Assembly (NCBI GenBank): GCA_000004985.1
Contig: GG738910.1
DNA: 64,000 bases
Origin: Naegleria gruberi
Taxonomy: Eukaryota
Reading direction: 5' to 3' (one strand)
The notes under the pieces are model-generated. The model was not told where the DNA came from. It searched no databases and was given only the letters and a program-made list of their open reading frames with translations. The position numbers and the translations under genes were made by a program. Positions 2,036 through 64,000 of this stretch are shown in pieces (the stretch's first letter is position 1; every line of letters starts with the position of its first letter).

Positions 2036-3697
2036 ATGGCGAGACTTTCATGTATTAAAGGTTTATTTAAAATATATATTGCTGTCTTTGCTATTGTTTT
2101 ATTAATTCTAGTGATTATCAACATTCAACGACATGAATCTGTTTTCAAGAAATCATCAACCTTTGAATCTATTCGAAACAAAATTTCGAATATAAATTCG
2201 GATGTATTAACAGATGAAAAAACAAACGAACAACAAAAAGATCAAGTACAAACAATAACTAAACCATCATCAAATTTAAATACAAATATTGCTAATCAAC
2301 AATTGCAAAACAAACAATCAGAAACTACAACACCTCTGATTTGTCTAAATTCCGACTCGAATAGATTGAAAACTAAACAAGAAGAATTATGTGATTCGGA
2401 ATATGGATGTGGAATGCTTCGTCAATGGAAACAAAATCAATTATTAATGTGTGAACGAAAGGAATCCCATCAAAAAACACAATTGACTTGTTATGAACAT
2501 AATAATTATCACTTGCCAACTGCCACCTTTCCACACACAATTTGTGATTCTGAAAATCTAGTCATGGATTTCTCAAAATTAGTAAGAGCACCATGTTTGA
2601 AATATAGACCTGGATATTTTTGTAAAAAGGAAACTTATTACAATTACAAATCTGGAGCATTGATTGGAAATTGTCATAGAACGAATGAATTTTCAAATTT
2701 GAATCATTTTGCAAATGATTTTGGAAAGGATATCTTTTCCAGTTTTATAACATTTGAAGAAAAACAAGTTGATTTGCAAAATGTGAAATTTTTTGATGGA
2801 ATTACTATTTTCGTATCGAGAGAACAAGATGAACATGTCAATATGTTTCATGCAATGAGTGATTTCTTTGCCACACATGTTGTCATTGAAATGTTTAAAC
2901 TGAACAGTTCAAATATTCAAATAGTCATTTTGGATGAGCATTTTGATGGACCTTTTGATTTCTTGTGGGATAAGGCACTTTCCTTCAAGAGACCAATGAA
3001 AAAGGCCTCTTCCTTTTCAAATGGAATGGTAAGATTTGAGAGGGCAATCTTTCAACATGCTGGCTATGCTACACATTTCCTCTCAAATTTGATGAATTTT
3101 AATGAGAATGATGCTACTATGTGTCACTCAAAAATTCCACTCGTTGCCAATTTTGCCAATAGAATTTTGAATGGTTTGGGTATCAAGAAGAGAGAAATCA
3201 ATAAGGGTGATGTGATTCGTGTCTTGTTCATCAGTCGAAGACCTTATGTGAAATTTGGAGTCGAGCACAATTTCATGTCTCGTCAAATTAGCAATGAAGA
3301 AGAGGTGTTGGATCGAATGAAGACTCACAGAGAATATGGCAAGAAATTCACAGTGGAAAGAGTTGATTTTGCACATTTGAAATTAGTTGAACAAATTCAA
3401 AAAGTTCACGATTCAGATTTCTTAATTGGATATCATGGAGCTGGATTGACTCACTCATTGTGGATGCCTGAGGAAACCTCTGCAGTTCTTGAAATTTGGA
3501 ATACAGTAACAACAAGAGGATGGAGATGCTTTGAACAATTCACATTTTGGAAGGGAAACGACTATACATTGTGGAGTAATTCAAATCCAAAGAATTTGAG
3601 AAAGGACAGTTTGGGAGATTACTTGACTGTGGATGTTGCGGACTTTTACAAAACATTTGATAGAATGGTTAACAAGTTGATTGACTCTAGGAATTAG
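2036..3697 (+). CDS. Type II membrane glycosyltransferase, family GT61 (DUF563), EOGT-like (EGF-domain O-GlcNAc transferase-like)
   Basis: 553-aa single-exon ORF. It has an N-terminal cytoplasmic stub plus hydrophobic signal anchor (IYIAVFAIVLLILVIINI). The C-terminal motif IGYHGAGLTHSLWMPEETSAVLEIW...RGWRCFEQFTFWKGNDYTLW matches the GT61/EOGT hallmark (HGAGLTH...V.E......RCY.....G..Y..W). ATG at 2036, TAG at 3695-3697. Confidence 0.8.
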   Translation: MARLSCIKGLFKIYIAVFAIVLLILVIINIQRHESVFKKSSTFESIRNKISNINSDVLTDEKTNEQQKDQVQTITKPSSNLNTNIANQQLQNKQSETTTPLICLNSDSNRLKTKQEELCDSEYGCGMLRQWKQNQLLMCERKESHQKTQLTCYEHNNYHLPTATFPHTICDSENLVMDFSKLVRAPCLKYRPGYFCKKETYYNYKSGALIGNCHRTNEFSNLNHFANDFGKDIFSSFITFEEKQVDLQNVKFFDGITIFVSREQDEHVNMFHAMSDFFATHVVIEMFKLNSSNIQIVILDEHFDGPFDFLWDKALSFKRPMKKASSFSNGMVRFERAIFQHAGYATHFLSNLMNFNENDATMCHSKIPLVANFANRILNGLGIKKREINKGDVIRVLFISRRPYVKFGVEHNFMSRQISNEEEVLDRMKTHREYGKKFTVERVDFAHLKLVEQIQKVHDSDFLIGYHGAGLTHSLWMPEETSAVLEIWNTVTTRGWRCFEQFTFWKGNDYTLWSNSNPKNLRKDSLGDYLTVDVADFYKTFDRMVNKLIDSRN

Positions 3698-6252: not shown

Positions 6253-8367
6253 TTAAACACTTGAGGAGGTTGAAGGAGAACTCACTTTCAATTGATCTTG
6301 TAATTTGGCTTGTAACTTTTTCCTGTTTTCAGCATTCTTTCTTTTGGATCTTAGTAACAGGACTGTTGTAAAGATTACAATAATCAAAATAATTAAAAGA
6401 ATGACCACCACACCAACAACACCCACAGTGATACCAATTGTTACTGCTGACTGATCAGAAGAGGTATATGTTGAGGTTTGTACCTTATTTTCACTCAGTG
6501 TCTTCTTAACAGACATGTCAATGACTCCAAATGAAGTAAGGTGACTCGTTTCACATTTGACTGATATTACAACTTGGAAATTGGTGTTATCTATTGTCTT
6601 GTTCAAGAAGGAGAGAATAGTAGTTTTCAACCCTGAAGATTCCCAAGTGTTTTTCAAAGTATTGTAATAGGCACAGGAATAATTCAAGTGCTCAGATTTA
6701 CCAATTGAAACATTGAAGAAAGCTAATGAAATTGGATCTTGTAAACCCTTGATTGCAATTTCTTGAGCCGATTGTCTGTCATAGAGTGAAATGGACATAA
6801 CTGTACTCTTCAATTTGTCACTATTCGAAAATAAAACTGGAGCAGAATTAGTGCTTGGATCGTAAATGGACGAAACTAACACAATCTCGCTTACATTATT
6901 AATTTGATCACTCATTGTCGCTGGAAATTCAAAACTAGTCTTGAAACCGTCAAAGGAAACTGATTTGGAATCAAGTTCTGTAACATCCTTCACAACTGTC
7001 AACTTTTCAACATAACCGTTTACCAAAGAAGTGTTCAAACATGTAGAATTTGCAGCCACAATCTTTCCATAACAATACTTGTATTCACAATATTGTCCAA
7101 AGTAATTTTCTTGGCATTCAACAACAGGTTCTTCCTCATTCATCCAATAATCTCCAATGTCAGTTTCTCTCCAGTCTGGTATTGTGAGATTAAGTGGTTT
7201 TGTGACGCATAATGTACCATTAGAATTAATGGAATAATTTGTTGAATTACACGAATATTCCATCATTAGAATTCTTTGATTATTGGTATCGGTTACTGTT
7301 ATGGCCATAGAGGAAACTCCTGGTTTAGACAGAATGTTGATAGACACACTTTCAGGACCTGACATGATTGTAGTTCCAGATACGGTTTGAATAATACCAG
7401 TACGCAAATCAATTCTTCTCAATCTGTGATTCCAACTGTCGGCAATGTACAAATCATTTTGTAATCCCAAGAATAAATCTCGAGGACTGTTAATCATGGC
7501 AGAAGTTGCTGCCGAACCGTCACCTGCAATACCTCCATTTCCTGTTCCACATATGGTTGAGATTATTCCAGTGGCAGCTGTTATTTTTCTGATTCTGTTG
7601 TTTTGAGTATCAGCAATATAAATGTCACCATTAGACATGATAGCAACAGCTTGAGGACCATTCAACTTGGCAGATGTTGACAATACGTTATCTGTAAATC
7701 CTGATGAACCTGCTGTTCCAGCAATTGTTGTAATAATACCAGTAAATATATCAAGTTTTCTGACAATATGGTTAAGAGTGTCTGAAATGTACAAATATTT
7801 CTGTGTTGTGGTATCGAATGTAACTCCTCTTGGACCATTAAGCATGGCTTGAGTAGCTATTTTACCATCGCCTGAAAACCCAGCTGTCAAGTTGCCAGCA
7901 ACAATAACGAGCTGACCTGTCATTAAATTTAACTTTCGAATAATATTATTACCACTCTCAGCAATGTATAACGCATTCTCTGTAGTACTCATGGTAATCT
8001 GTCTAGGTTCATTGAGTTTCGAATATCTTGCTTTGAACTTTCCACCAACGAGTGGTGATTCAGCAAAACCTTTCTCACCAGTTCCACATAAAGTCAGTAA
8101 ACTGCCATTCGAATGAATAAACTTCAATTGATGATTGCCAGTATCAGCAATCAACACTCTTGAATAATTAGAAACCCTTACTCCAGCTGGCCAAACTAGA
8201 GCATAGTTATTGCCAGCATCAGCAATAGTTTTATAACTTGTGGCCGTTGGCGTTAATTGACCATTGACATGTTGTTGATCTAGCTGTGTCAGTTGACTAA
8301 AGAGCAGAGTTGTTATGATCGTTATTATTAAATGTAGAATAGTCATAGATGAAACTGTTTGCTGCAT
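6253..8367 (-). CDS. Secreted type I membrane protein with about 6 NHL repeats (beta-propeller), a juxtamembrane GPS-like motif, one TM helix and a short basic tail ending in SSV
   Basis: 704-aa single-exon ORF. It has a signal peptide (MQQTVSSMTILHLIITIITTLLF). Repeated NHL signatures are present (YIADTGNHQLKF, YIAESGNNIIRKL, YISDTLNHIVRKL, IYIADTQNNRIRKI, LYIADSWNHRLRRI). The motif KCETSHLTSFGV lies about 35 aa before the TM (ITVGVVGVVVILLIILIIVIFTTVLLL), followed by an RSKRKN tail. Confidence 0.8.
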   Translation of the reverse strand: MQQTVSSMTILHLIITIITTLLFSQLTQLDQQHVNGQLTPTATSYKTIADAGNNYALVWPAGVRVSNYSRVLIADTGNHQLKFIHSNGSLLTLCGTGEKGFAESPLVGGKFKARYSKLNEPRQITMSTTENALYIAESGNNIIRKLNLMTGQLVIVAGNLTAGFSGDGKIATQAMLNGPRGVTFDTTTQKYLYISDTLNHIVRKLDIFTGIITTIAGTAGSSGFTDNVLSTSAKLNGPQAVAIMSNGDIYIADTQNNRIRKITAATGIISTICGTGNGGIAGDGSAATSAMINSPRDLFLGLQNDLYIADSWNHRLRRIDLRTGIIQTVSGTTIMSGPESVSINILSKPGVSSMAITVTDTNNQRILMMEYSCNSTNYSINSNGTLCVTKPLNLTIPDWRETDIGDYWMNEEEPVVECQENYFGQYCEYKYCYGKIVAANSTCLNTSLVNGYVEKLTVVKDVTELDSKSVSFDGFKTSFEFPATMSDQINNVSEIVLVSSIYDPSTNSAPVLFSNSDKLKSTVMSISLYDRQSAQEIAIKGLQDPISLAFFNVSIGKSEHLNYSCAYYNTLKNTWESSGLKTTILSFLNKTIDNTNFQVVISVKCETSHLTSFGVIDMSVKKTLSENKVQTSTYTSSDQSAVTIGITVGVVGVVVILLIILIIVIFTTVLLLRSKRKNAENRKKLQAKLQDQLKVSSPSTSSSV
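6523..6558 (-). other. GPS-like (GAIN-domain cleavage-site-like) motif C-x3-HLT-x-F-G-V in the 6253..8367 protein
   Basis: The translated sequence VKCETSHLTSFGVID matches the HL|T/S-x-F core of GPCR-proteolysis-site motifs and lies just outside the TM helix. Confidence 0.4.
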
Positions 8368-9633: not shown

Positions 9634-12452
9634 ATGCTGAACCGAGTCTTTCAAACTGGTGTCCTGTTGGTACTCACTCTTACTGTTTTAGTTTTGATTA
9701 TTGACAATCAACTCTGTGTAAATGCAACATTTAAACCATTGTACAAGATGAGTACTGTTGTGGGTGGTGGATTTGATGATGGTCAAGATGCTAAACAAGT
9801 TTGCCTTGCTCCAACCAAAGTCAAGTTTGATAGAAAGAGTGAGAATATTTATATTTCAGGTGAGTTTTTATTCTAAACATGCTTCAAGATTATATGATTA
9901 GATAGAATCAATAATAGAATCAGAAAGTTGGATGTGATGAGTGGAAAGATCAGCACTATTGTTGGAAATGAATTTATTGGATTTTCAGGAGATGGTCAAG
10001 CAGCAACTCTTGCTCATATCAATAATCCAGGAAAGGTTGAGGTCTCTTCAAATAATGATATTTACTTTGCTGTAAGTTCTCTTTGTTCTGTTTCTAATAC
10101 ACTCATTTCAAAAAGGACACTAACAATCACAGAATTAGAAAGGTATTTGCCAATGGAACGATTTTAACCATTGCTGGTTGTGGAGAATTTGGTTTTGATC
10201 TGGAAGAGAAATCTCCAGTTCCTGCTCTAGAAGCCAAAATCAATTATCCTAAAGCAGTTCTTCTCTCTTCTGATGAAAAGATATTGTACATTACAGATAC
10301 AGCTTCTCACATGATCAAAGCTCTTTCATTCGAAACTGGTTTAGTTTCCATTATTGCTGGCTCTTTATACCGTGATAGTTCTCAAAACTCAACGATTGTT
10401 CAAGGACCAATCAGTTTGGCTTTGAGCCCTCTGACTAGTGAGGTTTATTTTGTAGATGATGATGGTATTAAAAAGATTACTAATGAAGGAAAGATCGAAA
10501 TGATAACAAGAAATTCTAAATTTGGTGGAGATGGAGGTCTAGCAATCAATGCTGGAGTTTCAGCTGTTGATATTGAGTTTTTGGGCACTAGTAATACATT
10601 GTTAATTGCTGATTACGGCAATAATCGAATTAGAATTATTGGTACCAATGGCTTTATTGAAACCTATGCTGGTAATGGTAATGTGACTTCAAGTATTGAT
10701 GGCGAAAGAGCTTTAGATTCTCCACTGACGGCTTTTGGAGTTTCCACATCTAATGAGGGTGAAGTTTATTTTGCTGATTATGCCAGAGTTTCAGTTGTCA
10801 CCATTAATGGCTTAATCAAACACGTGGCTGGTAATGGGAAATTGCAATATTTGGGAGATGGTAATTTAGCAACCCAAAGTCAATTATTCAAGCCAAGAGG
10901 TGTTGCTGTTTCCACAAGTGGAGAGCTATTTATCAGCGATTCTGCTCAAGATACTATTCGAAAAGTTTCTACTGAAGGTGTAATTAATACCATTGCCGGT
11001 GGAACTTTTCCATTGGGAGGTTATATTCAAGATGGTGTTGACCCATTGAATACATTCCTTAATAATCCAAGCGCTCTAGAATTTTCATCAAGTTCAGGAG
11101 AATTGTTTCTTTCAGATTCTCACAATTTTAGAGTGAGAAAGATTTCAAAGGAAAATATCATTTCTACAATCGCTAACCATACCTCAATCACCAGACCACA
11201 CGGCATTGCTCTTTATAATGACTTGGTTTATGTGGCTGATTCTCAATCCAATAGAGTGATACGAGTTGATAAGAATGATGGCTCTGTAACTCTGATAGCA
11301 GGAAATGGAACTGCTGGTTATTCAGGAGATGGAAGTTTGGCTACTCAAGCTCAATTATTCAATGTTTCTGGAGTTACTGTTCTTCCTAATGGTGAAGTTT
11401 TGATTGCAGACACCAACAATCATAGAATTCGTAAGGTCAACTTGGAGGGTATTATTCAAACAATTGCTGGTACAGGAATTCCCGGATTTAATGGTGATAA
11501 TATCCTCGCCACTAGTGCTCAATTGAATTCTCCAACTGACATCGAAGTTTCTCCAGTTTCAGGTGAAATTATTATTGTTGATTCGAATAATCATCGTATC
11601 AGAAAGATTGATTCCTTTGGTAATATTTCTACAATTGCAGGAACAGGTATTGCATCATTGAGCTCACATGGTAAACTTTCCATCTATGGAAGTCTTAACA
11701 CTCCAACTACGCTTTCAATTTCTGCTTTCAGTGGTCATGTCTACATTGCAGATTACGAAAATAGAAGAATTAGAAAATTGGAACAATTTACTATTGAAAA
11801 ATACAATCTTCCAGTTCAAGATGATGGTGAATTGAGAACCGAAACTATCCAAGATTCTACAAATCTTAAAACAATTAATTATGATAATATTCAAATTGAA
11901 CCTCCAAAGGAAAGTTTAAAGAATTCAGAGCTGAGTCTTGCCACTTCAGTTTACCAAGTCGACAGAAATGGAAAATTAACATCTTTTGAAAAGTCTATTA
12001 AGAGTGGAATTGTCACTGTTGCAATTTTGGATTCTGATTGTAATGTTATAGAAAATCCATTTACTTCTCCTCTCACAATTACATTCACTGAACTTGATTT
12101 CAATTCTACATCAAACTATTCCTGTATTTCGTACAATCAAGAATCCAAAGAATGGAAGAATGATGGCTCTGTCAATGAAATTTTATCTCTTAATTCAAAA
12201 TTAACAATTTCATGCAAATTTAGCAAACTTTCATCATTTGCAATAATGGAATCAAGTGGAGGACCTAGTCCAATAATAACTGCAACCTCTTCAAATACTA
12301 ATACTTTCAGGGACGCTGGCTTGGGAACTGATGCTATTGTTGCCATTGTTGTTTCCACTGTTGGTGGTGTAGCTTTGGTTGGAATTATTATGGCTGTAAT
12401 TGTTGGAATATTGTTTATTATGAAGAGAAAGCAAAATCTTTCCAAAATTTGA
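9634..12452 (+). CDS. Secreted type I membrane protein with 9-10 NHL repeats, a juxtamembrane Cys motif and one TM. There are 3 exons, and frame discrepancies at about 10199-10201 and 10258-10262
   Basis: Exon 1 is 9634..9859 (signal peptide MLNRVFQTGVLLVLTLTVLVLI), followed by a 42-nt intron at 9860..9901 (GTGAGT...TTAG). Exon 2 is 9902..10071, followed by a 44-nt intron at 10072..10115 (GTAAGT...AAAG). Exon 3 runs from 10116 to TGA at 12450-12452. Splicing restores ...NIYISDRINNRIRKLDVMSGK... and ...NNDIYFADTNNHRIRKVFANG... Between 10199 and 10262 the conserved NHL reading (DLEEKSPVPALEAKINYPKAV) sits in the +1 frame relative to both flanks. Confidence 0.7.
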
Positions 12453-20100: not shown

Positions 20101-22405
20101 TATTGATGTTGCCACGGTTGGATATTGTGGTGATACAATTTATCAAAATCTTGCTTTGAATTCAAAGAATCGCTCCACAATTATTAATCTTTCACAACAA
20201 GATTTTCCATCCTATGTCATGAGCCCAACACTTACATTGTTCATTATGAAGGGAGATAGAAGCGTTTATAGCTCGTTAAATTTAAATATTCAACATTCAC
20301 CTCCAATAATCAGTGTTATTAGTATTTCACCAAATTTGAGAAATATTGTAACCAATGATGATAAAATATCAATTGAAATGAAACATCAAGATCAAGATCC
20401 CTCCAATTCATCACTCGTAATTAAAACTCAATGGAAAATTGATAACTTTTTGGTATCTGAAAGTAATACCAAAAAAGTGAATGGAAATGAATTTGAAACA
20501 ACTAGCTCCACAATCACAACACCTTTTAAGCATCTTAAGAGTTTAAATAAGAATAAGTATAGCTCGTTAGTTATTGACTCAAAAGAACTAGAAGAAGGAA
20601 CTGATCATTCAATTGAGGTCAAAGTTTCCTTTGTGGATAGTTATACCAATCAAGAAATGGCCGCCACTTCAAATGTGAACAGTTTCACAAAAGCCTTACC
20701 TCCAAGAAAGTGTCCATGTACCATTTCACCAACAACTGGTGTTTCAATGAAGACTGATTTTACATTCAGTTGTGATAATTGTCAGAATGAAGATAATACA
20801 ATTGAAATCAAACAAGGATACATTGATCAAGAAACTGGAATTAAGGTTTATTTACCATTGTCATTGGATGGTTCCGTTAACATTCCATCTTCCTCTTCTG
20901 CTACATCTTCTACCAAAAGAAGATTGGATGATCATTCTGTTCAATTATTTGTTGAACTGGGTGACAAATCAACAGGAGAATCCAGAGTAATGTATTCGAA
21001 TATCACTGTACTACCTCCAAGCCCACCACATCCAACTTTATCTGAAATTTTAAATCTTGTTTCAAATCAAACAAGTAAGATCATGTCTACTTCAATTCAA
21101 GATGGTAATACAGCAGTTAGTATTGCAGATACTCTTACTTGTATTGTGTCAACAAGTCAATTATTACAAACACTACCAAGTACTGATAAGGAAACAAGTA
21201 CTGTCACTCAAGTTCAATCTAAATTATTAGATACATTATCTAGTTCATTGCAAACAACTGGATCTGATAGTGTTTCAAGTTCCACAACGTCAATGGCCGT
21301 TCTAGCACTGCATTCCGTTGTGAAGAACGAACAAGTAATTGAAAAACCAGTTATTCAAAAATCAATTACCATTCTAAATAATGTTATTCAATTGACACTT
21401 AAAAGTAAGGTTGATATTTTCACACAAACATCAAAACCGCTATTAGCAATTGTTGGAAAGTTAAGTGACCAAGTTGCTAAATTTACCCACTTGAAAGAGG
21501 AATTTATAAGATACGAGGAAATAGCATCAACGGCTGAGATGATAACCCTGTCCTATGTTTCTGTTCAACCAGTGAGTGGTGATCCAGCAGCAATTCATGA
21601 GAGTGTTGTTAATGCCAAGGCTGACAAAATGTACTTGACTGATTTTTCAAATGTAATTATATCATCAGCGCCAACAAGCAATTCTAAAAAGAGAGTGAAT
21701 ATTTATCAATCTTTTGTGAATATTCCACCAATGAAAGTTACAGAAAGTAATGAATTTGCAGAATTGACCTATTCCTACATTGTTAAAGAGCATGTTCCAT
21801 CGATTTATCAAAAAATTTTACAACAAGAATCAAATAACTCTACCAATGGAACAAGGTTTGATGTAATTTCATCTGTGAGTGCTTCATTAGCAATTTCATC
21901 TCCTCATGCTCACATGATTGAATTTTCTCAAAATTTGACAATTTATATTCATGTCAATGATGAAGATTTCTCCACAGCGTCATTGACAGAATATGCATGT
22001 GTATTAGTCAATTCAAATTTGGAAAGCGATTTTGAAAATTGTACCATTTCAGGACGTGACAAGGCAACTGAGTCAATTGCTTGTAATTGTCGATTCATTG
22101 ATCTACATGTTTCTAATGTAATAATTCTCAAAAACAATAAGCAAAAAATAGTACTACAGAACAAACAAGAAGAAGGTCTAGATGATGATGTGTTGGTGAT
22201 TATAATTGTTGCAATTGTTTCATGTGTTGGATTGTCTATTCTGTCAATTTCAATGGTAATGGGAATTTTTGCTTGTTATATGAAGAAGAAATCTAAAAAG
22301 ATTTATCCTTACGAAAGAAAGGAATTAATTTCACACAATATTGAACAACCTACCAAACCTTATGATAATTCATTGATTTCAACATCTTCCATTTCTTTAC
22401 TTTAG
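14150..22405 (+). CDS. Giant (about 2,500 aa) secreted type I membrane protein with 7 exons. Domain order: degenerate NHL-like beta-propeller, tenascin-type EGF array, N/S/T-rich glycosylated spacer, further EGF and laminin-type EGF, PKD/REJ-like region, conserved CxC-ISP module, GPS-like motif, TM, cytoplasmic tail
   Basis: Exons by frame-consistent GT-AG splicing: 14150..14488, 14543..14822, 14863..15672, 15714..15844, 15888..16047, 16089..16198 and 16238..22405. The introns are 54, 40, 41, 43, 41 and 39 nt. The final exon is the 2,037-aa ORF, containing about 20 C-x-x-G-x-C EGF repeats, the motif KCPCTISPTTGVSMKTDFTFSCDNCQN, and a TM (VLVIIIVAIVSCVGLSILSISMVMGIFACYM). The start at 14150 is the first ATG of the first coding exon, but an upstream exon cannot be excluded. 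Confidence 0.72.
17269..17515 (+). repeat. Intragenic segmental duplication, copy 1 (encodes EGF plus N-glycosylation-rich spacer: CFGILNTNSSVCSGNGNC...NETSYFNET)
   Basis: About 250 nt nearly identical to 17823..18070, about 550 bp downstream in the same exon. Confidence 0.7.
17823..18070 (+). repeat. Intragenic segmental duplication, copy 2
   Basis: Near-identical to 17269..17515 at the nucleotide level, with T/S and H/N substitutions in the encoded EGF. Confidence 0.7.
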
Positions 22406-23400: not shown

Positions 23401-23744
23401 AAAAAACAACAACAAGCTCATCACCACCTGCTAAATAATTATTTATGATGAAGACCTCCATTTGCTTCCCATTACTACATTCAAACCACAACATGGCTGT
23501 ACATTATAGTAAAGGTTCATGTTCAACTACTACTTTGTTGCTAGAAGAACAAGATGTGGCTGAAGGTGTTGAACGCCTGTCTCCTCTTGTTCTAAACCTT
23601 CGGCTCGACTTCATGCCACCAGTGTTGATTAATAACATTTACTGTCCAAATATAAAGTGGTGTACTTTGTCAGGAGCGTATGGACTGAAAAGGAAATGCA
23701 GAATCGAGATAATGTTTATATTATATAAACTGAACCTTAAAAAA

Positions 23745-35700: not shown

Positions 35701-37050
35701 CAATCATCAAGTTATTTGAGTGCAGAAGTTCTTGTACCTGTCATTGGTTCACTAGCTGAAGCAAAGAAGAAACAACTTCAATGGAAAACAACAGGTTCCT
35801 CACTCAAAGATGGTGATTATATGAAGAGTGTGTATAGCAATGATGTTATGACAAGTACTTTCACAAAGATGATTGCCTCTTTACTATCAGCAAGATCTGT
35901 TTGTAACGGAAAAGGAGTTCTAAATAATGGAAAATGTCAATGTGATAATGGGTATTCTTCATTTGATTGTAGATATACCACTTCTGATTATGTATCCATT
36001 CAAGAGAGTGTATTTGATTTATCTAACGATTTTAAAGAAACATTTGGTGTTTATCTAGATTCCAAAGATATTCTAAGCGAAAAGTTTGTTGCCAATATTA
36101 TTTTCGGACTTGAAACTTTGACAAATCGTTTTGATTTCTTGAATGAGACATCTTTTGACATTATCTTATCAATTGTTGATCATTTATTGGAAGAACACGA
36201 AAAGTATTCATCAGTTCAAACATCCAATGGTGTAGATACGCTCTTACTCGATATTTTGGATCATTTATATTCTTTTACAGAATATTATGAGATTAAGGAA
36301 CAATTAATGAGCAAATTAATTGAAATTTCCCAAAGACTCTCTTCACTTGAATCAAGAAAAATATTGGTCGGCCAACCTCCTTTAATTCTTTCCAATCAAT
36401 TACAAACTTCAATTACCAACAAACATTTTAGAGAGGAATATTCAGGACTAGTAATTAGATATAATAATTATTCTACTATACTACCAGAGTCTTTCTCAAA
36501 GCATCTATCCAATCAGCCAAAGAGAGTACCAGTTACTTACAGTTGGTTTGCTCTTAAAGATCTTTCACAATTCATATTACCAGGAAATGCATCAAGAATT
36601 ATCTCAAAATATGTTGTGAAATTCACATTGGAAAAGGTTAAATATTTGGAATTATTGAAAGAACCTGTGAAATTTGAAATACCACTCATTGAACCAATAG
36701 ACATGAATTCTAATAAGTATTCCTGTATTGACTTTTCCAACATGACAATGCCAGTGGAAAGTGAGTGCCAATTTAAAGTGGAAAATGGAATAGCCTCTTG
36801 TTCTTGCTTAAACTACTCAAGTACCGTTGGAATAACATTCTTTGAACGCAGTCGAAGAGCTCCATCAATTCTTGCAGTTAAAACTGCACCACTTTGGGAA
36901 TTATTCTCTCTACTCACAATTCCATTTGCAATAATTTTGGTTGGTTGTGCATTCACAATTAAAACGATTTTTAACAGAAAAATCAGCCTTGACAATAATC
37001 AATTCGAATTGAGAAACGTGGACAGCATGATTGTGACGGAATCAGCTTAA
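23745..37050 (+). CDS. Giant (about 4,400 aa) secreted type I membrane protein. Domain order: NHL beta-propeller(s), interspersed single EGFs, array of more than 25 tenascin-type EGF repeats, laminin-type EGF, PKD/REJ-like region, CxC-ISP module, GPS-like motif, TM, 26-aa tail
   Basis: Exon 1 is 23745..24735, starting MATFIQEKQMAVSKGAQKSSIISTMMMIIFVCLLFLANSIRG with a signal peptide and NHL motifs (IYIAEKGNHVIRKV, IYIADSGNNRVRKV). A 49-nt intron at 24736..24784 (GTATGT...ATAG, phase 1) follows. Exon 2 is 24785..37050, the 4,078-aa ORF. The EGF array spans about 31650-33950. Other landmarks are the KCTCTISPSSGYALQTLFTFACTDCKN motif, ASCSCLNYSSTVGITF juxtamembrane, and TM LFSLLTIPFAIILVGCAFTI. 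The 5' end (gaaccttaaaaaaatg) is shared with the 46962 gene. Confidence 0.8.
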
Positions 37051-38253: not shown

Positions 38254-41200
38254 TTAAACAGACTTCATTTCAACTCCTTGTTTTGAGGAATTTGTAGTTT
38301 CTGGTTTCATTCTCTTAACAACACAATAACCAAAAATTCCCAATACAATAAAGGCAATAATGATAAAGCAAATAATCAAAAAAGCCCACAAAATCCAGAA
38401 TAACTCAGAGATTCCCTTTGGAGTTTCAGGATTAACTTGTTTTTCAATTGGAACAGATGATAAAATACCAACTCTAACATTTTCTGAACATTCACATTGG
38501 CCAGAATTAGAATTGAAGGAGAATTTACATGAAGAAGCATCAATGACTTGACCATTTGTAACTTGAATGCACGAATAAGTTGCCTTATCATTAAAAGTTT
38601 GTGTAAGTGGCAAGGAATGAGTTATTGGAGAGGAATAGTTTGTAATAGATGTTGAGAATTTAATTTCAGATAAATCAGAGACAATAGTATTAGTTGTACC
38701 TTCTTGTTGAGGAGTTACATATTGAGAAACATCCTTAATAATCATCCAAATGTAATTGACTGGCTTTCTGAGAGAGACACTTTGTAACCTTTGAGAAACA
38801 GTTGAAGGAAGAGTTAATGAAGTTTGACTTTCTGTCAAAACTTGTGAATCAAAAGTATTCTTAAATTGCTTGTTGAATTGATGAACTGCAAAATTAGGTT
38901 CAAACTTGAAAGATGATTGACCAACAAGAACCTTTCTTGAAAGTAATGAAACCACCATGTGACAACTTTCCATCAATTCTGAATAGTCATACGAAGGCAA
39001 AGTCTTTAAATAAGAATGCATGGAATTGAGGGACGAAAGCAACAACCTTTCAACACCAACTTCAAATTGGAATAATGGAGTGTTTTCAGCATCATTCAAG
39101 GTTGACTTGATAATATTCATACTCATGTTATAGACATTAGCAGAAACGTAACTCTTCAACATAGATTCAATACCGAACATAATGTTAGTAAAAAACCTTC
39201 CAGTTATCTTTTCTCCATTTTCATTCTTGACTTGTTGGGAAGAAAAGAAAGCAGTAGCCAAATCTTGAGTAATTTCATTCAAAATTTCATAATCTTCCTT
39301 TGTCATTCTACAGTCAAATGTTGTGTAATCAGCCTCACAAACACATTTTCCATTAACCAATGAACCATGTCCAGAACAATCTTTCTTTACACTTCTTGAT
39401 TTAGGGGCGAGAGAATCTGTCATTCTCTTGAGGACTCTTGAAATGATTGCAGAATTGAAAACAGATCTAGCATAATCACCAGTTGGTAATAATAAGGTGA
39501 TGGCGTTCCATTTTGTCATGTACTCCTTGATATCCTTTACCTTTGATACATATGGAGCTGTAATTTGAACTGATTTCTTGGAAAGAGTTGTTGCAGATGT
39601 TTCAGTATCAATAACCTTAACATACAGTTCAAGATTATTACCAGAATTTGGAGTTGGAAGTTTTTGGTACAATTCTTCATCCTTTGATAAGGTAATTAAA
39701 GCACCTGAGAAATCATCAATAAAACCATATTCGAAAGCATAAGTCTTCTTATCATTTTGACAATTTTCACAATTGAAAGTAAAGATTGTGGTCAAAGCAA
39801 TACCAGAAGTTGGACTAATGGCACAACTACATGCTTTTGGAGGTCTGTTAACAGAGAAGGAATAAGAATATGATGTCTTTTGATTATTTCTCTTATCCAA
39901 GATAGTTAATGAAATGGTATTAGAACTACCTTCATCCAAATATTGAGTATCCAAAATTAGAGAATTTGACAATGATGAACTGATACTCATTGGTGATGTT
40001 AATATAGCATCAATAGCCTTGTCATTCAATAACCATGTTCTTGAGATGAATTGATCTATATTTAAATCACCATTAATAGTGACAACCAATTGAATATTGA
40101 CATAATCTCCCTTATTAACCTTTGAAGAAGATACTTGAACAACGGAGATCAAAGGTGGCATGATTAAATGTTCTGCTTGTTGTGGAAAATTCAAATCAAC
40201 TGATGATTGAACAAATCTACTTCCCTTTCGAATAGTGAGGCTAATTCTAACATTTTCTGCTGAACCAAACATTGACTTTTCAATCTTGTATTGTTCAAGA
40301 AAACCTTGAGACAAGTAATTAACAACATCAACTGGACAAACAGTATTAGTAACAGTGTCCACACATGTCCAAGAATAAGTTGGTTGAACATTTTCAGATT
40401 CTGGATCAGTGAAATCAATTCCAATGGTACTGTATTGAGGAGTAGAATCTAAAACATACATGTTCATTGAGAGTGCTTGAGCTACAGTGTCGATAGTGAC
40501 AAGAGCTGTTGAAAATTTGTTAACATTAGAAGTATCGAAAGCAGAGACTTTGAAAACATATTGTCTTGTTTCAATGGTATTGAAATTGGTAATCTTTAAA
40601 TTCTTGAATGAATCAACTGTGAATTCTACTTGAGGACCACTGATTTGTGTCCATGTGTAATCAATATTTGCAGCAGATTCCATGCATATTGGAATGGACA
40701 GCTTCTTCTTGAATGAAATTGGAACGTCACTAGTCTTGACAGTAACTGAACTACTTTTATATAAGCCATCAATGGAAACAACTGGAACAGCATAGGTAAG
40801 TTTGGTGAAACTGAATTGAATCTTATCAACCAATGAATAAACTTGACTAGTTACAGCCAATTCAAATTGATGAACACCAGCATTCATACCAGAATAGCTA
40901 ATATTCAATTTACTTGGGGAAGCAAGAGTAGAATCCAATAACTTTTGAAGTTCTACCTTATTTGGTGATGACAATACAGTCCATTTGAAATTCAATGTCT
41001 TTCTATCAGGGGAATAACTTTCAGAAGCATCAATTAAAACATCTTCACAACTTCCATAAGTGTCCTTAGCTCCAGATATTGTGGCAATCGGACTCTTTGG
41101 TGATAAAGCACCTTGGACAGTAAATGCCAAATATTGAGCATTGACATTATTTGATTCAAAGTATAAATTATTCAAAGAGATACTATCACCTGCCTTCAAT

Positions 41201-49900: not shown

Positions 49901-52900
49901 TTTGTGATGTTGTGGCATGTGATGGTTTTAAAATAAGTGATCCTAGAGCTTGTAATAGACATGGTATTTGTGAAGGCCCAAACATTTGTAATTGCACTAC
50001 AGGTTATGTTGGTTCATTTTGTGATGTTTCTTTGTGTTATGGTTTCAATTCGAGTGATCCTAGAGTTTGTAATGGACATGGTATTTGTGAAGGACCAGAT
50101 GTTTGCAATTGTACCACAGGTTATGTTGGTTCATTTTGTGATGTTGTGGCATGTGATGGTTTCAATTCAAGTGATTCAAGAGCTTGTAATAGACATGGTA
50201 TTTGTGAAGGCCCAAACATTTGTAATTGCACTACAGGTTATGTTGGTTCATTTTGTGATGTTTCTTTGTGTTATGGTTTCAATTCAAGTGATCCTAGAGT
50301 TTGTAATAGACATGGTATCTGTGAAGGCCCAAACATTTGTAATTGCACTACAGGTTATGTTGGTTCATTTTGTGATGTTTCTTTGTGTTATGGTTTCAAT
50401 TCGAGTGATCCTAGAGCTTGTAATGGACATGGTATTTGTGAAGGACCAGATGTTTGCAATTGTACCACAGGTTATGTTGGTTCATTTTGTGATGTTTCTT
50501 TGTGTAATGGTTTCAATTCGAGTGATCCTAGAGTTTGTAATGGACATGGTATCTGTGAAGGCCCAAACATTTGTAATTGCAGCACAGGTTATATTGGCCC
50601 ACTTTGTGACGNNNNNNNNNNNNNNNNNNNNNNNNNNNNNNNNNNNNNNNNNNNNNNNNNNNNNNNNNNNNNNNNNNNNNNNNNNNNNNNNNNNNNNNNN
50701 NNNNNNNNNNNNNNNNNNNNNNNNNNNNNNNNNNNNNNNNNNNNNNNNNNNNNNNNNNNNNNNNNNNNNNNNNNNNNNNNNNNNNNNNNNNNNNNNNNNN
50801 NNNNNNNNNNNNNNNNNNNNNNNNNNNNNNNNNNNNNNNNNNNNNNNNNNNNNNNNNNNNNNNNNNNNNNNNNNNNNNNNNNNNNNNNNNNNNNNNNNNN
50901 NNNNNNNNNNNNNNNNNNNNNNNNNNNNNNNNNNNNNNNNNNNNNNNNNNNNNNNNNNNNNNNNNNNNNNNNNNNNNNNNNNNNNNNNNNNNNNNNNNNN
51001 NNNNNNNNNNNNNNNNNNNNNNNNNNNNNNNNNNNNNNNNNNNNNNNNNNNNNNNNNNNNNNNNNNNNNNNNNNNNNNNNNNNNNNNNNNNNNNNNNNNN
51101 NNNNNNNNNNNNNNNNNNNNNNNNNNNNNNNNNNNNNNNNNNNNNNNNNNNNNNNNNACCAAAATTCAAATGTTTCGACTCTAGTTACCATTCAAACAAG
51201 CTCTGAACAATTATATGCAAACCTTTTTATTGATACTATTTCCAGTAAGAAGGTAACACTTGTGGTTGCAAATCAAGATTTAGAACAAAGTAATGAAGCG
51301 GAAACTTGGAGTTACGTTTGTCAAGATGAAAATTTTACTAATTGTGGTCAGACAATTGCCAATATTCTCTCGAATTATGCTTCTATCAAATCTAAAACTT
51401 TGGAATTATCAGCAGATAATTTCCCATCCATTGATTCCACATATTCAATTACTTTAAACATTGTAAAGGGAGTAAGAAGTTTTTCATCTTTAATTTCCTT
51501 GAAATTTCCAAAAGAAAACCAAAAACTTCCTCCAATAGTTAACTTATTGAATGTTATTCCAAATAGAAACAGATTAAGCAAATCTGAATTTTTGAATTTA
51601 CAAATTTCTGTCACTAACAGTGATGGATTGGATGTCAAAAATTTAAAAAGAGAATGGAAATTGAATGGACAATCAATTGATGATAACTATTTAACCAAGA
51701 TGAGTACAGCATTATCAGATTCTAACAATATCGTTTTAAGTATCACCTATTTAGATGAAGGTTCATCTAACGTATTGACATGTCAAGTCACAGATTTGGA
51801 TAGTCAATTGTCAAGCACTTTTAGTTACTCATTTTCAATTATTACATCACCTAAACCATGTCCATGTTCAGTTTCACCATCTACAGGATATGCGTTAGAA
51901 ACAGAATTTACCTTCTCATGCACAAACTGCCAAAATAAGGACAATACTCTAGCATTTAGTCTATCATTTGTAGATGATAAATCTGGAGCTCTTATTCCAC
52001 TTGTAATTGAAGGTGGAAACACATTTACCACAAAGCTTCCATATCCAATTTCCAATCCATTAATGTTTGACATTACAATTGTTGACATAGAGACACTTGC
52101 ATCAGTTCAAAACTATCAAAACATTCAGATGATTTTACCAAAAGCAAGTTCTGTTCGTGAAGTCAAAACAAAAGTTGCCAAGTGGAATACTTTCCAAACT
52201 TCACTTCAACAAAATGATTTGAGAAGAATGATTTTCTCATCTGCAATTATTTCTAGAACCTCTGAGGCAATGATTTCAGCAATCAGTGGAAGAAGATCTA
52301 TTTGTTTGAACGGCGGAGTTTATAATTCTCAATTAAGAAAATGTATTTGTGTGAATGGATACAAAAAGAAAGATTGCAGCCTTAATGAAGAAGATTTCAC
52401 ATTGTTAACTGAATTTAAAGGTGAATTATTTAATAACTTTTTATTTGCATTCAAAAACAGACAAGAACAAATGTCTGAAATGTATATCATCTATCAATTA
52501 TATGGCTTGGATTCACTTTTATCAAATTATGATGAATTGAATGCTGAGATGTTTGCAAATGGAGTCCAATTCTTCAAGGATTTAATATCTTCCGCTGTTA
52601 GTGTTTCTAATTTACATCTAAGACCTGGAATTGACAAATTAACTCAAAATATTATCAACTCACTTTACAGATATTTGATTTATAATGGATGTATTGAAAA
52701 GGAATGTTTGAGAGATCATGTTATTGAAATGATAAGCATGTTGAAAGAAATTTCACAACTATTACTCAGATCCAAACTTGTAGGAGAAAGTGATCTGAAA
52801 TTAGACACTGATTTTATGGTGTTATTGACAAATAAGAACTATAGATACCATTTCAATAGTTTGAAAGTTCAAAATTTAACTTTACCTACCAATGATGAAG

Positions 52901-53529
52901 GAATTTCTTCAATTAATAACAGAATGCTATTGTCTTTCATTTCAACTAGTTCACATAATTTGGCCAACAAAATTGAGTCAACAATTGAAGTTTATGAGAA
53001 GGTAGAAAATAATAGAAAAGAGACTCAAACAATCACCAAGGATTATTCTATTACTTCAAATGTTATAAGTTTTTCCTTTTTAAGAGACCTCCAAATGAAT
53101 CAATCCATTTCCTTCTCCTTCCCTAGAAATGATCAATTTTCCGCAAGAAGCGAGCAATCATTCGAATATTCATGTATTGTAATTTGGAATATCACTCAAG
53201 TTAGACCAGAAAATGAAAATAATAATTGTAAAATAGTTGTCAACCAAGAAACAATTATTTGTCAATGTCCATATCAAAACCAAACTCAAGTAGGTGTTTT
53301 GAGAACAGCCATTTCGAGACGTGTTTCAGTTGAACAAGTAGCTCAACCTTCAGATTCAAGTAATTTACTCTATCTATTATTTTTACTCTTTTTAGTATTG
53401 TTTATTATTTTAATTGTAATAATAATTGGAATTGTTATTGTATGTCTGGTTAAAAGAAGGAGAAATGGTGGTAGTAAAAAGTCAGCAGCACATGTTGAAA
53501 TGGAGACTGTTAAAACTTCGACAGTTTAG
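46962..53529 (+). CDS. Large secreted type I membrane protein interrupted by two assembly gaps. Domain order: signal peptide, [gap], about 8 NHL repeats, at least 9 near-identical 40-aa EGF repeats, [gap], PKD/REJ-like region, CxC-ISP module, GPS-like motif, TM, tail ending in STV
   Basis: ATG at 46962 (or 46977) opens MNLKKMKTFLVCCLILIIICTVS, which then runs into the N-gap. The frame reopens at 48285 (...NGDYQYATNANLNYPLGVLITPNGEMIISETYGNRIRRV...) and is continuous, through the second gap as X, to TAG at 53527-53529. Landmarks are the PCPCSVSPSTGYALETEFTFSCTNCQN motif, IICQCPYQNQTQVGVL juxtamembrane, and TM LLYLLFLLFLVLFIILIVIIIGIVIVCLV. Exon structure inside the gaps is unknown. Confidence 0.68.
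47033..48284. other. Assembly gap (1,252 N) inside the 46962..53529 gene
   Basis: Run of N. Confidence 1.
49555..50611 (+). repeat. Coding tandem repeat, period 120 bp (40 aa: CDV(V/S)(A/L)C(D/Y/N)GFNSSD(S/P)R(A/V)CN(G/R)HGICEGP(N/D)(I/V)CNC(T/S)TGY(V/I)G(S/P)(F/L)). There are about 9 near-identical copies, running into the gap at 50612
   Basis: Successive 120-nt units differ at only a few positions. The array is truncated by the N-gap, so the copy number is unknown. Confidence 0.8.
50612..51157. other. Assembly gap (546 N) at the end of the 120-bp EGF tandem array
   Basis: Run of N immediately after repeat unit 9. Confidence 1.
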
Positions 53530-63690: not shown

Positions 63691-64000
63691 GGTTTAGATT
63701 TTTAGGCTTGGGTTTTTAGGCTTGGGTTTGGGTTTGGGTTTGGGTTTGGGTTTGGGTTTGGGTTTGGGTTTGGGTTTGGGTTTGGGTTTGGGTTTGGGTT
63801 TGGGTTTGGGTTTGGGTTTGGGTTTGGGTTTGGGTTTGGGTTTGGGTTTGGGTTTGGGTTTGGGTTTGGGTTTGGGTTTGGGTTTGGGTTTGGGTTTGGG
63901 TTTGGGTTTGGGTTTGGGTTTGGGTTTGGGTTTGGGTTTGGGTTTGGGTTTGGGTTTGGGTTTGGGTTTGGGTTTGGGTTTGGGTTTGGGTTTGGGTTTG
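63691..64000 (+). repeat. Telomeric repeat array. Degenerate lead-in (TTTAGATTTTTAGGCTTGGGTTTTTAGGCTTGGG), then about 46 perfect TTTGGG units (63724..64000) running to the window end; the G-rich strand points 5'->3' outward
   Basis: Perfect hexamer periodicity to the last base. It is preceded by variant repeats and by non-coding subtelomeric tandem duplications. Confidence 0.75.

What the first reader, a model, noticed from the sequence alone, without database searches (positions are those of the whole stretch)
6523..6558. GPS/GAIN-like juxtamembrane motif in all six receptors; only the shortest keeps a canonical HL-T-x-F cleavage core
Each protein has a C-x-C motif about 25-40 aa outside the TM followed by a hydrophobic -V-G-(I/V)-L stretch. 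In the giant genes this is ASCSCLNYSSTVGITF at about 36781-36850, GQCECSENVRVGIL at about 38461-38510 (minus strand), IICQCPYQNQTQVGVL at about 53251-53310, and IACNCRFIDLHVSNV at about 22071-22127. In the 704-aa gene it reads KCETSHLTSFGV, matching the autoproteolytic HL|T/S-x-F core of adhesion-GPCR/polycystin GPS motifs. The larger paralogues have NY-S, NV-R or QN-Q at the cleavage position, which predicts they are non-cleavable. Together with PKD/REJ-like segments upstream (motifs such as GSCEDVLIDASESYSPDRKTLNFKWTV and GSCDSIIIDGSKSYSPDSKPLSFSWKVV) this suggests a polycystin-1/suREJ-like ectodomain on a single-pass protein.
Basis: partly seen in the sequence, partly recalled or inferred. 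Interest (0 to 1): 0.6.

Follow-up and report, generated by a model that had tools for sequence, protein, structure and literature searches.

The report
GAIN/GPS stalk domains in Naegleria receptors
Six neighbouring surface-protein genes of the amoeba Naegleria gruberi carry, next to the membrane, the self-cleaving "GAIN/GPS" module known from animal adhesion receptors and polycystin-1, but only one copy keeps an intact cleavage site. This extends a known domain to a distant eukaryote and is not a new kind of system.

Summary
The motif KCETSHLTSFGV is at window 6523-6558 (minus strand), 33 residues before the only TM helix of a 704-aa protein. That protein is identical to Naegleria gruberi XP_002670972, annotated "predicted protein".

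- **Small proteins.** The two small NHL-propeller proteins (704 and 722 aa) have only a subdomain-B-sized region. It aligns with the giants' subdomain B (hhalign P 4.5e-4; 0 of 300 shuffles reach the score). It hits Pfam GPS just below threshold (21.1 and 17.5 bits against 22.5). Both proteins keep C1 and C3 and lose C2 and C4, which are the two partners of one known GPS disulfide.

The GAIN fold of the 704-aa protein itself could not be shown, because its model failed (pLDDT 40). Its cleavage is plausible but unproven.

It is a new member of a known kind.

The parts
6253..8367 (-). g704: 704-aa type-I single-pass protein, identical to N. gruberi XP_002670972 / NAEGRDRAFT_53244 / D2VYE8. Order: signal-like N-terminus, NHL beta-propeller, Cys-rich linker, GAIN-B/GPS-like region, TM, 32-aa tail.
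   Evidence: ORF and translation. Pfam NHL and TEN_NHL hits. Identity to P0012.
6514..6978 (-). g704 aa 464-618: region the size of GAIN subdomain B. There is no helical subdomain A upstream.
   Evidence: hhalign against eight giant subdomain-B sequences: score 29.7, P 4.5e-4, 105 columns, 0 of 300 column shuffles reach it. The AF2 model failed (pLDDT 40), so the fold itself is unverified.
6520..6678 (-). g704 aa 564-616: match to the GPS motif. C1 is in NYSC at 562-565, then W-x3-G, C3 is at 605, then HL|T-S-F-G-V-I.
   Evidence: Pfam PF01825 covers profile positions 2-45 of 45. Score is 17.6 bits in the whole protein and 21.1 bits (E 4.7e-4) in the isolated piece; the cutoff is 22.5. Shuffled and reversed controls give no hit, and changing HLTSF to AAASA removes the hit.
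6535..6543 (-). g704 H609-L610-T611: predicted autoproteolytic triad, with the scissile bond between L610 and T611.
   Evidence: Read directly from the sequence. The equivalent CL1 mutations H836S, L837A and T838G abolish cleavage (PMC3321182).
6352..6438 (-). g704 transmembrane helix (aa 644-672), 33 aa after T611.
   Evidence: Hydropathy scan and coordinates.
10284..12452 (+). g722: NHL-propeller single-pass protein. It is the C-terminal part of NAEGRDRAFT_59588 / D2VYE9, whose public model is 872 aa.
12120..12245 (+). g722 aa 613-654: GPS-like motif with C1 and C3 only and a K-L|S-S-F-A-I core (12225-12239).
   Evidence: Pfam GPS 17.5 bits, E 6e-3, profile positions 2-44 of 45. Alignment with g704. 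BAI3 has R-L|S at this site.
38455..39246 (-). g1210 aa 881-1144: full GAIN domain with helical subdomain A and beta-sandwich subdomain B. It has four GPS cysteines and no H-L-T triad (C-E-C-S-E-N-V-R-V-G-I-L).
39511..40410 (-). g1210 REJ module, upstream of the GAIN domain.
   Evidence: Pfam PF02010 E 6.6e-22, 78.2 bits. K319L-like PKD domain 31.3 bits.
36061..36843 (+). g4078 aa 3750-4010: GAIN domain homologous to that of g1210. Cys block at 36715-36840. Part of NAEGRDRAFT_53247 / D2VYF1.
   Evidence: 26-28% identity, colinear alignment with g1210. Profile hit P0002 E 9e-92. REJ E 2.2e-27 at 35017-35718.
52486..53307 (+). g1732 aa 1386-1659: GAIN domain. Cys block at 53164-53301. Part of NAEGRDRAFT_74100 / D2VYF3.
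   Evidence: Alignments. P0003 E 8.7e-88. REJ E 5.8e-21 at 51301-52221.
21416..22132 (+). g2037 aa 1709-1947: probable divergent GAIN domain. Cys block at 21989-22129.
   Evidence: Four Cys at 14/14/2 spacing. A core-giant HMM gives only 10.8 bits, rank 3 of 3004 sequences including 3000 shuffles. REJ E 2.1e-15 upstream at 19787-21112.

Best explanation
**Setting.** The window is a subtelomeric piece of the Naegleria gruberi genome. It holds a tandem cluster of six paralogous type-I, single-pass surface proteins. Their membrane-proximal module is a GAIN domain, the fold that contains the GPS autoproteolysis motif of adhesion GPCRs and polycystin-1.

**Giant proteins.** The four giants are built from NHL propellers, EGF arrays and PKD/REJ modules. 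In them the module is a complete GAIN domain, with helical subdomain A and beta-sandwich subdomain B, placed directly after the REJ module. This is the REJ-GAIN-TM order of polycystin-1 and sea-urchin REJ proteins. They keep all four GPS cysteines, which form the C1-C3 and C2-C4 disulfides in known structures. They have lost the His-Leu-Thr/Ser triad. I infer that here the GAIN domain is a non-cleaving, disulfide-stapled stalk.

**Small proteins.** In the two small NHL-propeller proteins the module is reduced to subdomain B. The C2-C4 cysteine pair has been lost as a pair. The last strand keeps the cleavage core: HL|T-S-F-G-V-I in g704 and K-L|S-S-F-A-I in g722.

**Inferred mechanism for g704.** This has not been shown experimentally.
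1. In the ER, H609 deprotonates T611.
2. T611 attacks the L610 carbonyl in an N-to-O acyl shift, and the resulting ester is hydrolysed.
3. This yields an N-terminal fragment of about 610 aa. It stays bound non-covalently to a 94-aa C-terminal fragment made of the last beta-strand, a linker, the TM helix and a short tail.
4. Pulling on the propeller could then shed the ectodomain.
For: **Organism and gene identity.**

**Giants.**
- REJ (PF02010) is above threshold in all four, E 2e-15 to 2e-27.
- The g1210 model has pLDDT 78.8, with 4 helices and about 13 strands.
- Foldseek top hits are BAI3, CD97 and GPR110 GAIN domains, E 6e-11 to 2e-6.
- Cysteine spacing is 14-18 / 11-14 / 2, against 19 / 12 / 2 in CL1 with C801-C832 and C820-C834 disulfides.
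- Willaertia magna and N. fowleri relatives show the same C...C...CxC plus strand plus TM pattern.

**Small proteins.**
- Pfam GPS scores 21.1 and 17.5 bits over the full profile length, and controls are clean.
- hhalign to the giants' subdomain B gives P 4.5e-4, and 0 of 300 shuffles reach the score.
- C1 and C3 are kept while C2 and C4 are both lost. This is the loss expected for one whole disulfide.
- The extended cleavage pattern occurs only at these two sites in the window.
- The L-[ST]-S-F-[GA]-[VI] strand is conserved between two proteins that are only 26% identical.

**Triad function.**
Against: - The AF2 model of the g704 region failed (pLDDT 40) and found no fold match.
- The Pfam GPS scores are below the gathering cutoff, and they depend on the HLTSF core.
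- A giants-only HMM does not detect the small proteins above shuffles, and a first hhalign run with shallow alignments found nothing.
- An exhaustive profile search of 1.84 billion proteins found only heterolobosean-type relatives. It found no animal GAIN protein, so the link to canonical GAIN domains is structural, not sequence-based.
- In latrophilin, deleting subdomain A abolishes cleavage, and the two disulfides hold the scissile turn in place. g704 lacks subdomain A and one disulfide, so it may not cleave.
- Only one giant was modelled. The evidence for g2037 is weak.
- Disulfide geometry in the model could not be inspected.
Confidence: 0.78

Rival explanations
1. The giants have true GAIN domains, but the juxtamembrane region of g704 and g722 is an unrelated beta-sandwich such as an Ig-like domain. 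On this view HLTSF / KLSSF is a chance or convergent resemblance and no autoproteolysis occurs.
For: - The g704 AF2 model failed.
- Pfam GPS is below the cutoff and the hit vanishes when five residues are changed.
- A giants-only HMM finds nothing.
- phmmer against PDB gives only weak Ig V-set 'Y-x-C' matches, E 0.3-5.
- The pentamer HL[ST]xF occurs 8 times in six frames by chance.
Against: - Two paralogues independently hit the same Pfam family over its full length, at the same distance from the TM.
- hhalign to the giants' subdomain B is far above all 300 shuffles.
- The conserved W-x3-G and the paired loss of C2 and C4 fit GPS topology.
- The genes sit in a cluster of GAIN-bearing paralogues.
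- The Ig matches are not significant.
Confidence: 0.12
2. All six proteins have GAIN-type domains but none cleaves. On this view g704's HL|T is a relic in a truncated domain that has only subdomain B and one disulfide, and that can no longer strain the scissile bond. The domain would serve only as a rigid stalk.
For: - Deleting subdomain A in CL1 abolishes cleavage.
- Both disulfides are described as holding the turn in place.
- BAI3, with R-L|S, is uncleaved in HEK293 and insect cells (PMC3321182).
- No homologue outside N. gruberi shows conservation of the triad.
Against: - The full H-L-T-x-F-G-V-I core is kept, and a second N. gruberi isolate sequence (P0005) keeps it too.
- The L-[ST]-x-F-[GA]-[VI] strand is conserved between g704 and g722 at 26% overall identity.
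- From my own knowledge, not tested here: some animal GAIN domains with a reduced subdomain A, such as ADGRG1 and ADGRG3, still cleave.
Confidence: 0.4

Closest known systems
Polycystin-1 / PKDREJ / sea-urchin suREJ proteins (REJ module followed by GAIN/GPS)
   Same: - REJ module (Pfam PF02010) directly followed by a GAIN domain and then the first TM helix.
- PKD-type Ig domains and EGF modules lie upstream.
- suREJ1 is described as having a single TM segment. This is from my own knowledge (Moy et al. 1996) and was not checked here.
   Different: - No PLAT/LH2 domain, no 11-TM or TRP-like channel part, and only a 20-70 aa tail.
- The giants lack the HL|T triad that polycystin-1 uses.
- NHL propellers are not part of polycystin ectodomains.
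- The organism is a heterolobosean amoeba.
Adhesion-GPCR GAIN domains, especially the uncleaved BAI3/ADGRB3 domain (PDB 4DLO)
   Same: - Subdomains A and B are both present, with four GPS cysteines.
- The domain lies immediately before the membrane.
- g722's K-L|S resembles BAI3's R-L|S.
   Different: - No 7TM domain, so there is no tethered-agonist target.
- Sequence identity is about 10-12%, and Pfam GPS does not detect the giants.
- The small proteins lack subdomain A and the C2-C4 disulfide.
ZU5 / Nup98-type autoproteolytic beta-sandwiches (ZU5 superfamily)
   Different: These domains are cytoplasmic or nuclear. They have no helical subdomain A and no GPS cysteines, and their scores are much lower than those of GAIN domains.
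Protist GAIN domains reported by Arac et al. 2012 (Dictyostelium discoideum, Tetrahymena thermophila)
   Same: GAIN/GPS domains outside animals, identified by structure-guided searches.
   Different: Those organisms belong to Amoebozoa and Ciliophora. No report for Naegleria or other Discoba turned up in the searchable library.

Membership tests
GAIN domain (adhesion-GPCR / PKD1 type) | Fold: alpha-helical subdomain A followed by a twisted beta-sandwich subdomain B whose last five strands form the GPS | tested here: met
   [not shown]
GAIN domain (adhesion-GPCR / PKD1 type) | The same fold in the small proteins g704 and g722 | tested here: inconclusive
   AF2 failed (pLDDT 40) and Foldseek found nothing. 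Indirect support: hhalign to the giants' subdomain B at P 4.5e-4, with 0 of 300 shuffles reaching the score. No helical subdomain A is present in the sequence.
GAIN domain (adhesion-GPCR / PKD1 type) | GPS motif recognised by Pfam PF01825 at its gathering score (22.5 bits) | tested here: not met
   g704 scores 21.1 bits (E 4.7e-4) and g722 scores 17.5 bits (E 6e-3), both just below the cutoff but over the full profile length. The giants give no hit at E up to 10.
GAIN domain (adhesion-GPCR / PKD1 type) | Four conserved cysteines able to form C1-C3 and C2-C4 disulfides | tested here: met
   The giants have four Cys at spacing 14-18 / 11-14 / 2, against 19 / 12 / 2 in CL1. The small proteins keep only C1 and C3, having lost one complete pair. 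Actual disulfide formation is not testable here.
GAIN domain (adhesion-GPCR / PKD1 type) | Catalytic His-Leu-Thr/Ser/Cys triad at the turn before the last strand | tested here: met
   Met only in g704 (H609-L610-T611). g722 has K-L-S. The giants have E-N-V, Y-S-S, Q-N-Q or D-L-H type residues, so it is not met there.
GAIN domain (adhesion-GPCR / PKD1 type) | Position immediately N-terminal to the first transmembrane helix | tested here: met
   The Cys block lies 25-40 aa before the single TM in all six proteins.
GAIN domain (adhesion-GPCR / PKD1 type) | Demonstrated cis-autoproteolysis | not testable with these tools
   Requires protein expression, or proteomics looking for a fragment that begins TSFGVIDM.
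Polycystin-1 / PKDREJ family | REJ module (PF02010) | tested here: met
   g2037 E 2.1e-15, g1210 E 6.6e-22, g1732 E 5.8e-21, g4078 E 2.2e-27. Absent from g704 and g722.
Polycystin-1 / PKDREJ family | PLAT/LH2 domain and a multi-pass (11-TM or TRP-like channel) C-terminal part | tested here: not met
   There is one hydrophobic segment and a short tail. Pfam finds no PLAT or PKD_channel domain.
Adhesion GPCR | Secretin-like 7TM domain after the GAIN domain | tested here: not met
   Single TM only, and no 7tm_2 Pfam hit.
Teneurin | Type-II orientation, with a YD-shell / Tox-GHH C-terminal region after the EGF and NHL modules | tested here: not met
   Only the EGF_TEN and TEN_NHL sub-domain models hit. 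The TM is C-terminal (type I), and no YD or RHS hits are found.

The most novel reading that the evidence does not exclude
g704 (NAEGRDRAFT_53244) may be a naturally minimised GAIN domain that has only subdomain B and a single disulfide and that still cleaves itself, on a single-pass NHL-propeller protein of a discobid amoeba. If so, GAIN autoproteolysis was already present near the root of eukaryotes. It would also be separable both from subdomain A and from any 7TM or 11TM signalling partner, and would act as a force-releasable ectodomain latch. Within one gene cluster, the paralogues would then have taken two alternative routes: keep the second disulfide and lose the triad, or keep the triad and lose the disulfide.
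Probability: 0.3. Interest if true: 0.7.

Novelty: new member of a known kind. Interest (0 to 1): 0.45.

Why it matters
GAIN/GPS is the hallmark module of adhesion GPCRs and polycystin-1, and it is a locus of human disease mutations. Published surveys place its origin before animals on the basis of Dictyostelium and Tetrahymena.

A structurally convincing REJ-GAIN-TM cassette in Naegleria (Discoba) widens that distribution. It supports either a very ancient eukaryotic origin or horizontal spread of the polycystin-type ectodomain.

The cluster also offers a natural experiment: paralogues with four cysteines and no triad sit next to paralogues with two cysteines and an intact triad. This could show what a GAIN domain minimally needs in order to cleave, and what an uncleaved GAIN domain does in a protein that has no GPCR or channel part.

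All of these genes are currently annotated only as "predicted protein".

Tried and rejected
- **Word-index homologue searches.** The g704 C-terminus gave no hits, not even to itself. The 11-sequence alignment returned only one fragment. These were limits of the index, not evidence of absence.
- **Exact-sequence contig look-up of g704.** It found nothing, although the identical protein P0012 exists.
- **PDB sequence searches with profiles or GPS pieces.** They found nothing relevant. The weak Ig V-set 'YxC' matches (E 0.3-5) were considered as an alternative fold and rejected as insignificant.
- **First hhalign run (2 small against 4 giants).** No match. A giants-only HMM also failed to score the small proteins above shuffles. 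Only the deeper 8-giant alignment gave a calibrated signal.
- **AF2 of the g704 region.** It failed, and the fold search on that model was meaningless.
- **afdb50 fold library.** Not available, so the public AlphaFold model of D2VYE8 could not be consulted.
- **Teneurin membership.** Considered because of the TEN_NHL and EGF_TEN hits. Rejected on topology and the lack of a YD shell.
- **SEA-type autoproteolysis.** Considered, but no Pfam support was found.
Full report
**What is there.** The ORF 6253-8367 on the minus strand encodes 704 aa. The protein has a signal-like N-terminus, NHL repeats (Pfam NHL E 1.3e-20, TEN_NHL E 2.3e-20) and a Cys-rich linker. It then has the region in question, one hydrophobic helix (aa 644-672) and a 32-aa tail.

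It is identical to Naegleria gruberi XP_002670972 / NAEGRDRAFT_53244 / D2VYE8, annotated "predicted protein". The neighbouring genes match the following, all from one 244-kb N. gruberi scaffold:
- g722 matches NAEGRDRAFT_59588.
- g4078 matches NAEGRDRAFT_53247.
- g1732 matches NAEGRDRAFT_74100.

The window therefore holds a tandem cluster of six single-pass proteins:
- g704 at 6253-8367(-)
- g722 at 10284-12452(+)
- g2037 at 16292-22405(+)
- g4078 at 24814-37050(+)
- g1210 at 38254-41886(-)
- g1732 at 48331-53529(+), interrupted by an N gap

**Check of the observation.** All quoted peptides exist at or within a few bases of the stated coordinates. Three details need correction.
1. C-x-C is present only in the four giants. 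g704 has C-E-T and g722 has C-K-F.
2. The sixth protein, g722, was not described. It carries SCKFSKLSSFAI at 12210-12245, a near-canonical K-L|S-x-F.
3. g2037 lacks the Gly of the V-G-(I/V)-L stretch.

The pentamer HL[ST]xF alone occurs 8 times in the six-frame translation, so by itself it is at chance level. The extended pattern [HKR]L[TSC]xF[AG][VILM] occurs only twice, at the juxtamembrane sites of g704 and g722.

**The giants have a real GAIN domain behind a real REJ module.** Pfam REJ (PF02010) is well above its cutoff in all four giants, with E from 2e-15 to 2e-27. g1210 also passes the K319L-like PKD model.

No sequence method linked the roughly 280 residues between REJ/EGF and the TM to known domains. 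Pfam gave nothing at E up to 10, and PDB profile searches gave nothing. An exhaustive HMM search of 1.84 billion proteins returned only ten relatives. Those with a source name are from N. gruberi or N. fowleri. The N. fowleri one is named "PKD/REJ-like domain-containing protein". One further relative comes from unnamed metagenome contigs. A Willaertia magna relative has the same C...C...CxC, strand and TM ending in an adjacent ORF.

With an 11-sequence alignment (A4), AlphaFold2 modelled the g1210 region at mean pLDDT 78.8 and pTM 0.69, with four helices followed by about 13 strands.
- Foldseek against PDB ranked the BAI3 GAIN+HormR structure 4dlo first (E 6.4e-11, TM 0.65 over 282 columns). 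CD97 and GPR110 GAIN domains followed, and then ZU5 domains.
- ZU5 as a second tier fits its published homology to GPS (PMC3482391).

g4078 and g1732 share this domain by plain homology, at 24-28% identity and colinear alignment. g2037 and its paralogue P0011 are much more divergent. A core-giant HMM scores them at only 11-12.5 bits, ranks 2-3 among 3000 shuffles. Its assignment therefore rests on that weak signal, the upstream REJ and the cysteine pattern.

**Cysteines and triad.** In latrophilin CL1 the GPS disulfides are C801-C832 and C820-C834, that is C1-C3 and C2-C4 (PMC3321182). The spacings there are 19, 12 and 2. The giants have four invariant cysteines with spacings of 14-18, 11-14 and 2, which is compatible.

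At the positions of the H-L-T triad they carry residues such as E-N-V in g1210, with no His, no Leu and no hydroxyl or thiol nucleophile in register. The CL1 mutations H836S, L837A and T838G each abolish cleavage. The prediction that the giants do not cleave is therefore well founded, although it remains an inference.

**The small proteins.** Scanned alone, the juxtamembrane pieces of g704 and g722 hit Pfam GPS as their best hit. The scores are 21.1 bits (E 4.7e-4) and 17.5 bits (E 6e-3), covering profile positions 2-45 of 45, against a cutoff of 22.5. Reversed and shuffled controls gave no GPS hit. Replacing HLTSF or KLSSF by alanines removed the hit, so most of the score sits in the core.

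Both proteins share N-Y-S-C (C1), an aromatic residue three positions on, W-x3-G at the place of the canonical W-x3-G-C, C3, and then the core. The residue at C2 is Leu or Ser and the residue at C4 is Thr or Phe. The two cysteines that pair with each other in known structures have therefore been lost together, while the C1-C3 pair is retained. That is what a GPS disulfide topology predicts. I regard it as the most telling sequence evidence.

Direct homology to the giants was at first undetectable. With eight giant sequences, hhalign aligned 105 columns (g704 aa 464-578) to the giants' subdomain B, with score 29.7 and P 4.5e-4. In 300 column shuffles the mean was 11.2 (SD 2.1) and the maximum 22.0.

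The AF2 model of the g704 region failed (pLDDT 40), and its fold search was empty. The fold of g704 is therefore inferred, not shown. There is no room for a helical subdomain A, because the region follows directly on the NHL propeller and a Cys-rich linker.

**How it most likely works.**
- *Shown:* a GAIN fold in a giant, REJ modules, the motif content and the topology.
- *Inferred for the giants:* they use an uncleaved, doubly disulfide-stapled GAIN domain as a membrane-proximal stalk. It supports adhesive ectodomains made of NHL propellers, long EGF arrays and PKD/REJ modules.
- *Inferred for g704:* it may undergo the standard cis-autoproteolysis. His609 acts as base, Thr611 attacks the Leu610 carbonyl and the ester is hydrolysed. 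The NHL-propeller fragment would remain held non-covalently by the last beta-strand (TSFGVIDM...) of a 94-aa membrane fragment, and could be shed under load.
- *Inferred for g722:* with K-L|S it resembles BAI3 (R-L|S), which is uncleaved in HEK293 and insect cells. Its status is open.

Two facts from the same paper argue for caution. Deleting subdomain A abolishes CL1 cleavage, and both disulfides are said to hold the scissile turn in place. I put the probability that g704 really cleaves at roughly 0.4-0.5. I put the probability that its region is a true GPS/GAIN-B homologue at about 0.8.

**Comparison with what is known.** The giants work like, and are built like, the ectodomain end of polycystin-1, PKDREJ and suREJ, with REJ then GAIN then TM. 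They are not members of that family in the strict sense, because they have no PLAT domain and no multi-pass or channel part. They are not adhesion GPCRs, because they have no 7TM domain. The TEN_NHL and EGF_TEN hits reflect shared sub-domains, not teneurin membership.

GAIN domains outside animals have been reported for Dictyostelium and Tetrahymena (PMC3321182). A 2025 survey accepts that GAIN predates Holozoa (PMC12716839). I found no paper in the searchable library linking GAIN, REJ or polycystin-type domains to Naegleria.

The finding is therefore a new member of a known kind. It carries one unusual variant, the two-cysteine form that has only subdomain B but an intact triad.

**Verdict.** The interest is moderate: a phylogenetic extension plus a natural paired experiment on what GAIN cleavage requires. 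The central biochemical claim, cleavage of the 6253-8367 product, remains untested.

Noticed in passing
window 63722-64000: A perfect (TTGGGT) x 46.5 array runs to the end of the window. It is a register shift of TTTGGG, the candidate N. gruberi telomere repeat reported by Fulneckova et al. 2013 (PMC3622300). The G-rich strand points toward the window end, so the receptor cluster lies within about 10-58 kb of a chromosome end, a subtelomeric surface-protein family.
   Followed up: partly
window 41797-42991 (-) and 49537-50609 (+): Tandem arrays with a 117-bp period (one 39-aa EGF unit), 9-10 copies at 77-86% identity, with a higher-order 351-bp period. The second array runs into the N gap at 50612-51157, so the EGF copy number of g1732 is not resolved in this assembly.
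   Followed up: no
C-termini of g704 (6253), g1210 (38254) and g1732 (53529), and relatives P0009, P0015, P0016: Most family members end in Val, often as S/T-x-V: SSSV, KSV, STV, KHV. This could be a PDZ-type or ER-export C-terminal signal. It is the only conserved feature of the short cytoplasmic tails.
   Followed up: no
window 47033-48284, 50612-51157, 63034-63083: Runs of N (assembly gaps). The long 'ORFs' listed at 46962-48334 on both strands are artefacts of translating N.
   Followed up: yes
window 23445-24842 (+) and 41867-43366 (-): ORFs encoding NHL repeats (23445-24842) and EGF repeats (41867-43366) lie directly upstream of g4078 and g1210 and overlap them by about 20-30 bases. They probably belong to the same genes, joined by a short intron or a frameshift. 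The public g4078 model is 4502 aa, and a 1913-aa paralogue of g1210 (P0015) lies on another scaffold.
   Followed up: partly
[not shown]
   Followed up: no
L001:12215-12796 (Willaertia magna JBEGDK010000068): The public gene model of the Willaertia REJ protein (P0001, 757 aa) stops before its GAIN C-terminus. The Cys block (LECVPV...NCSLVV...MCNCSSSVTTVVVV) and the TM lie in the next ORF in another frame, so the model is probably truncated by a missed intron or frameshift.
   Followed up: partly
window 2036-3697 (+): The ORF has a glycosyltransferase family 61 domain (Pfam E 3.9e-21) and lies next to the cluster of heavily N-glycosylation-sequon-rich surface proteins.
   Followed up: no
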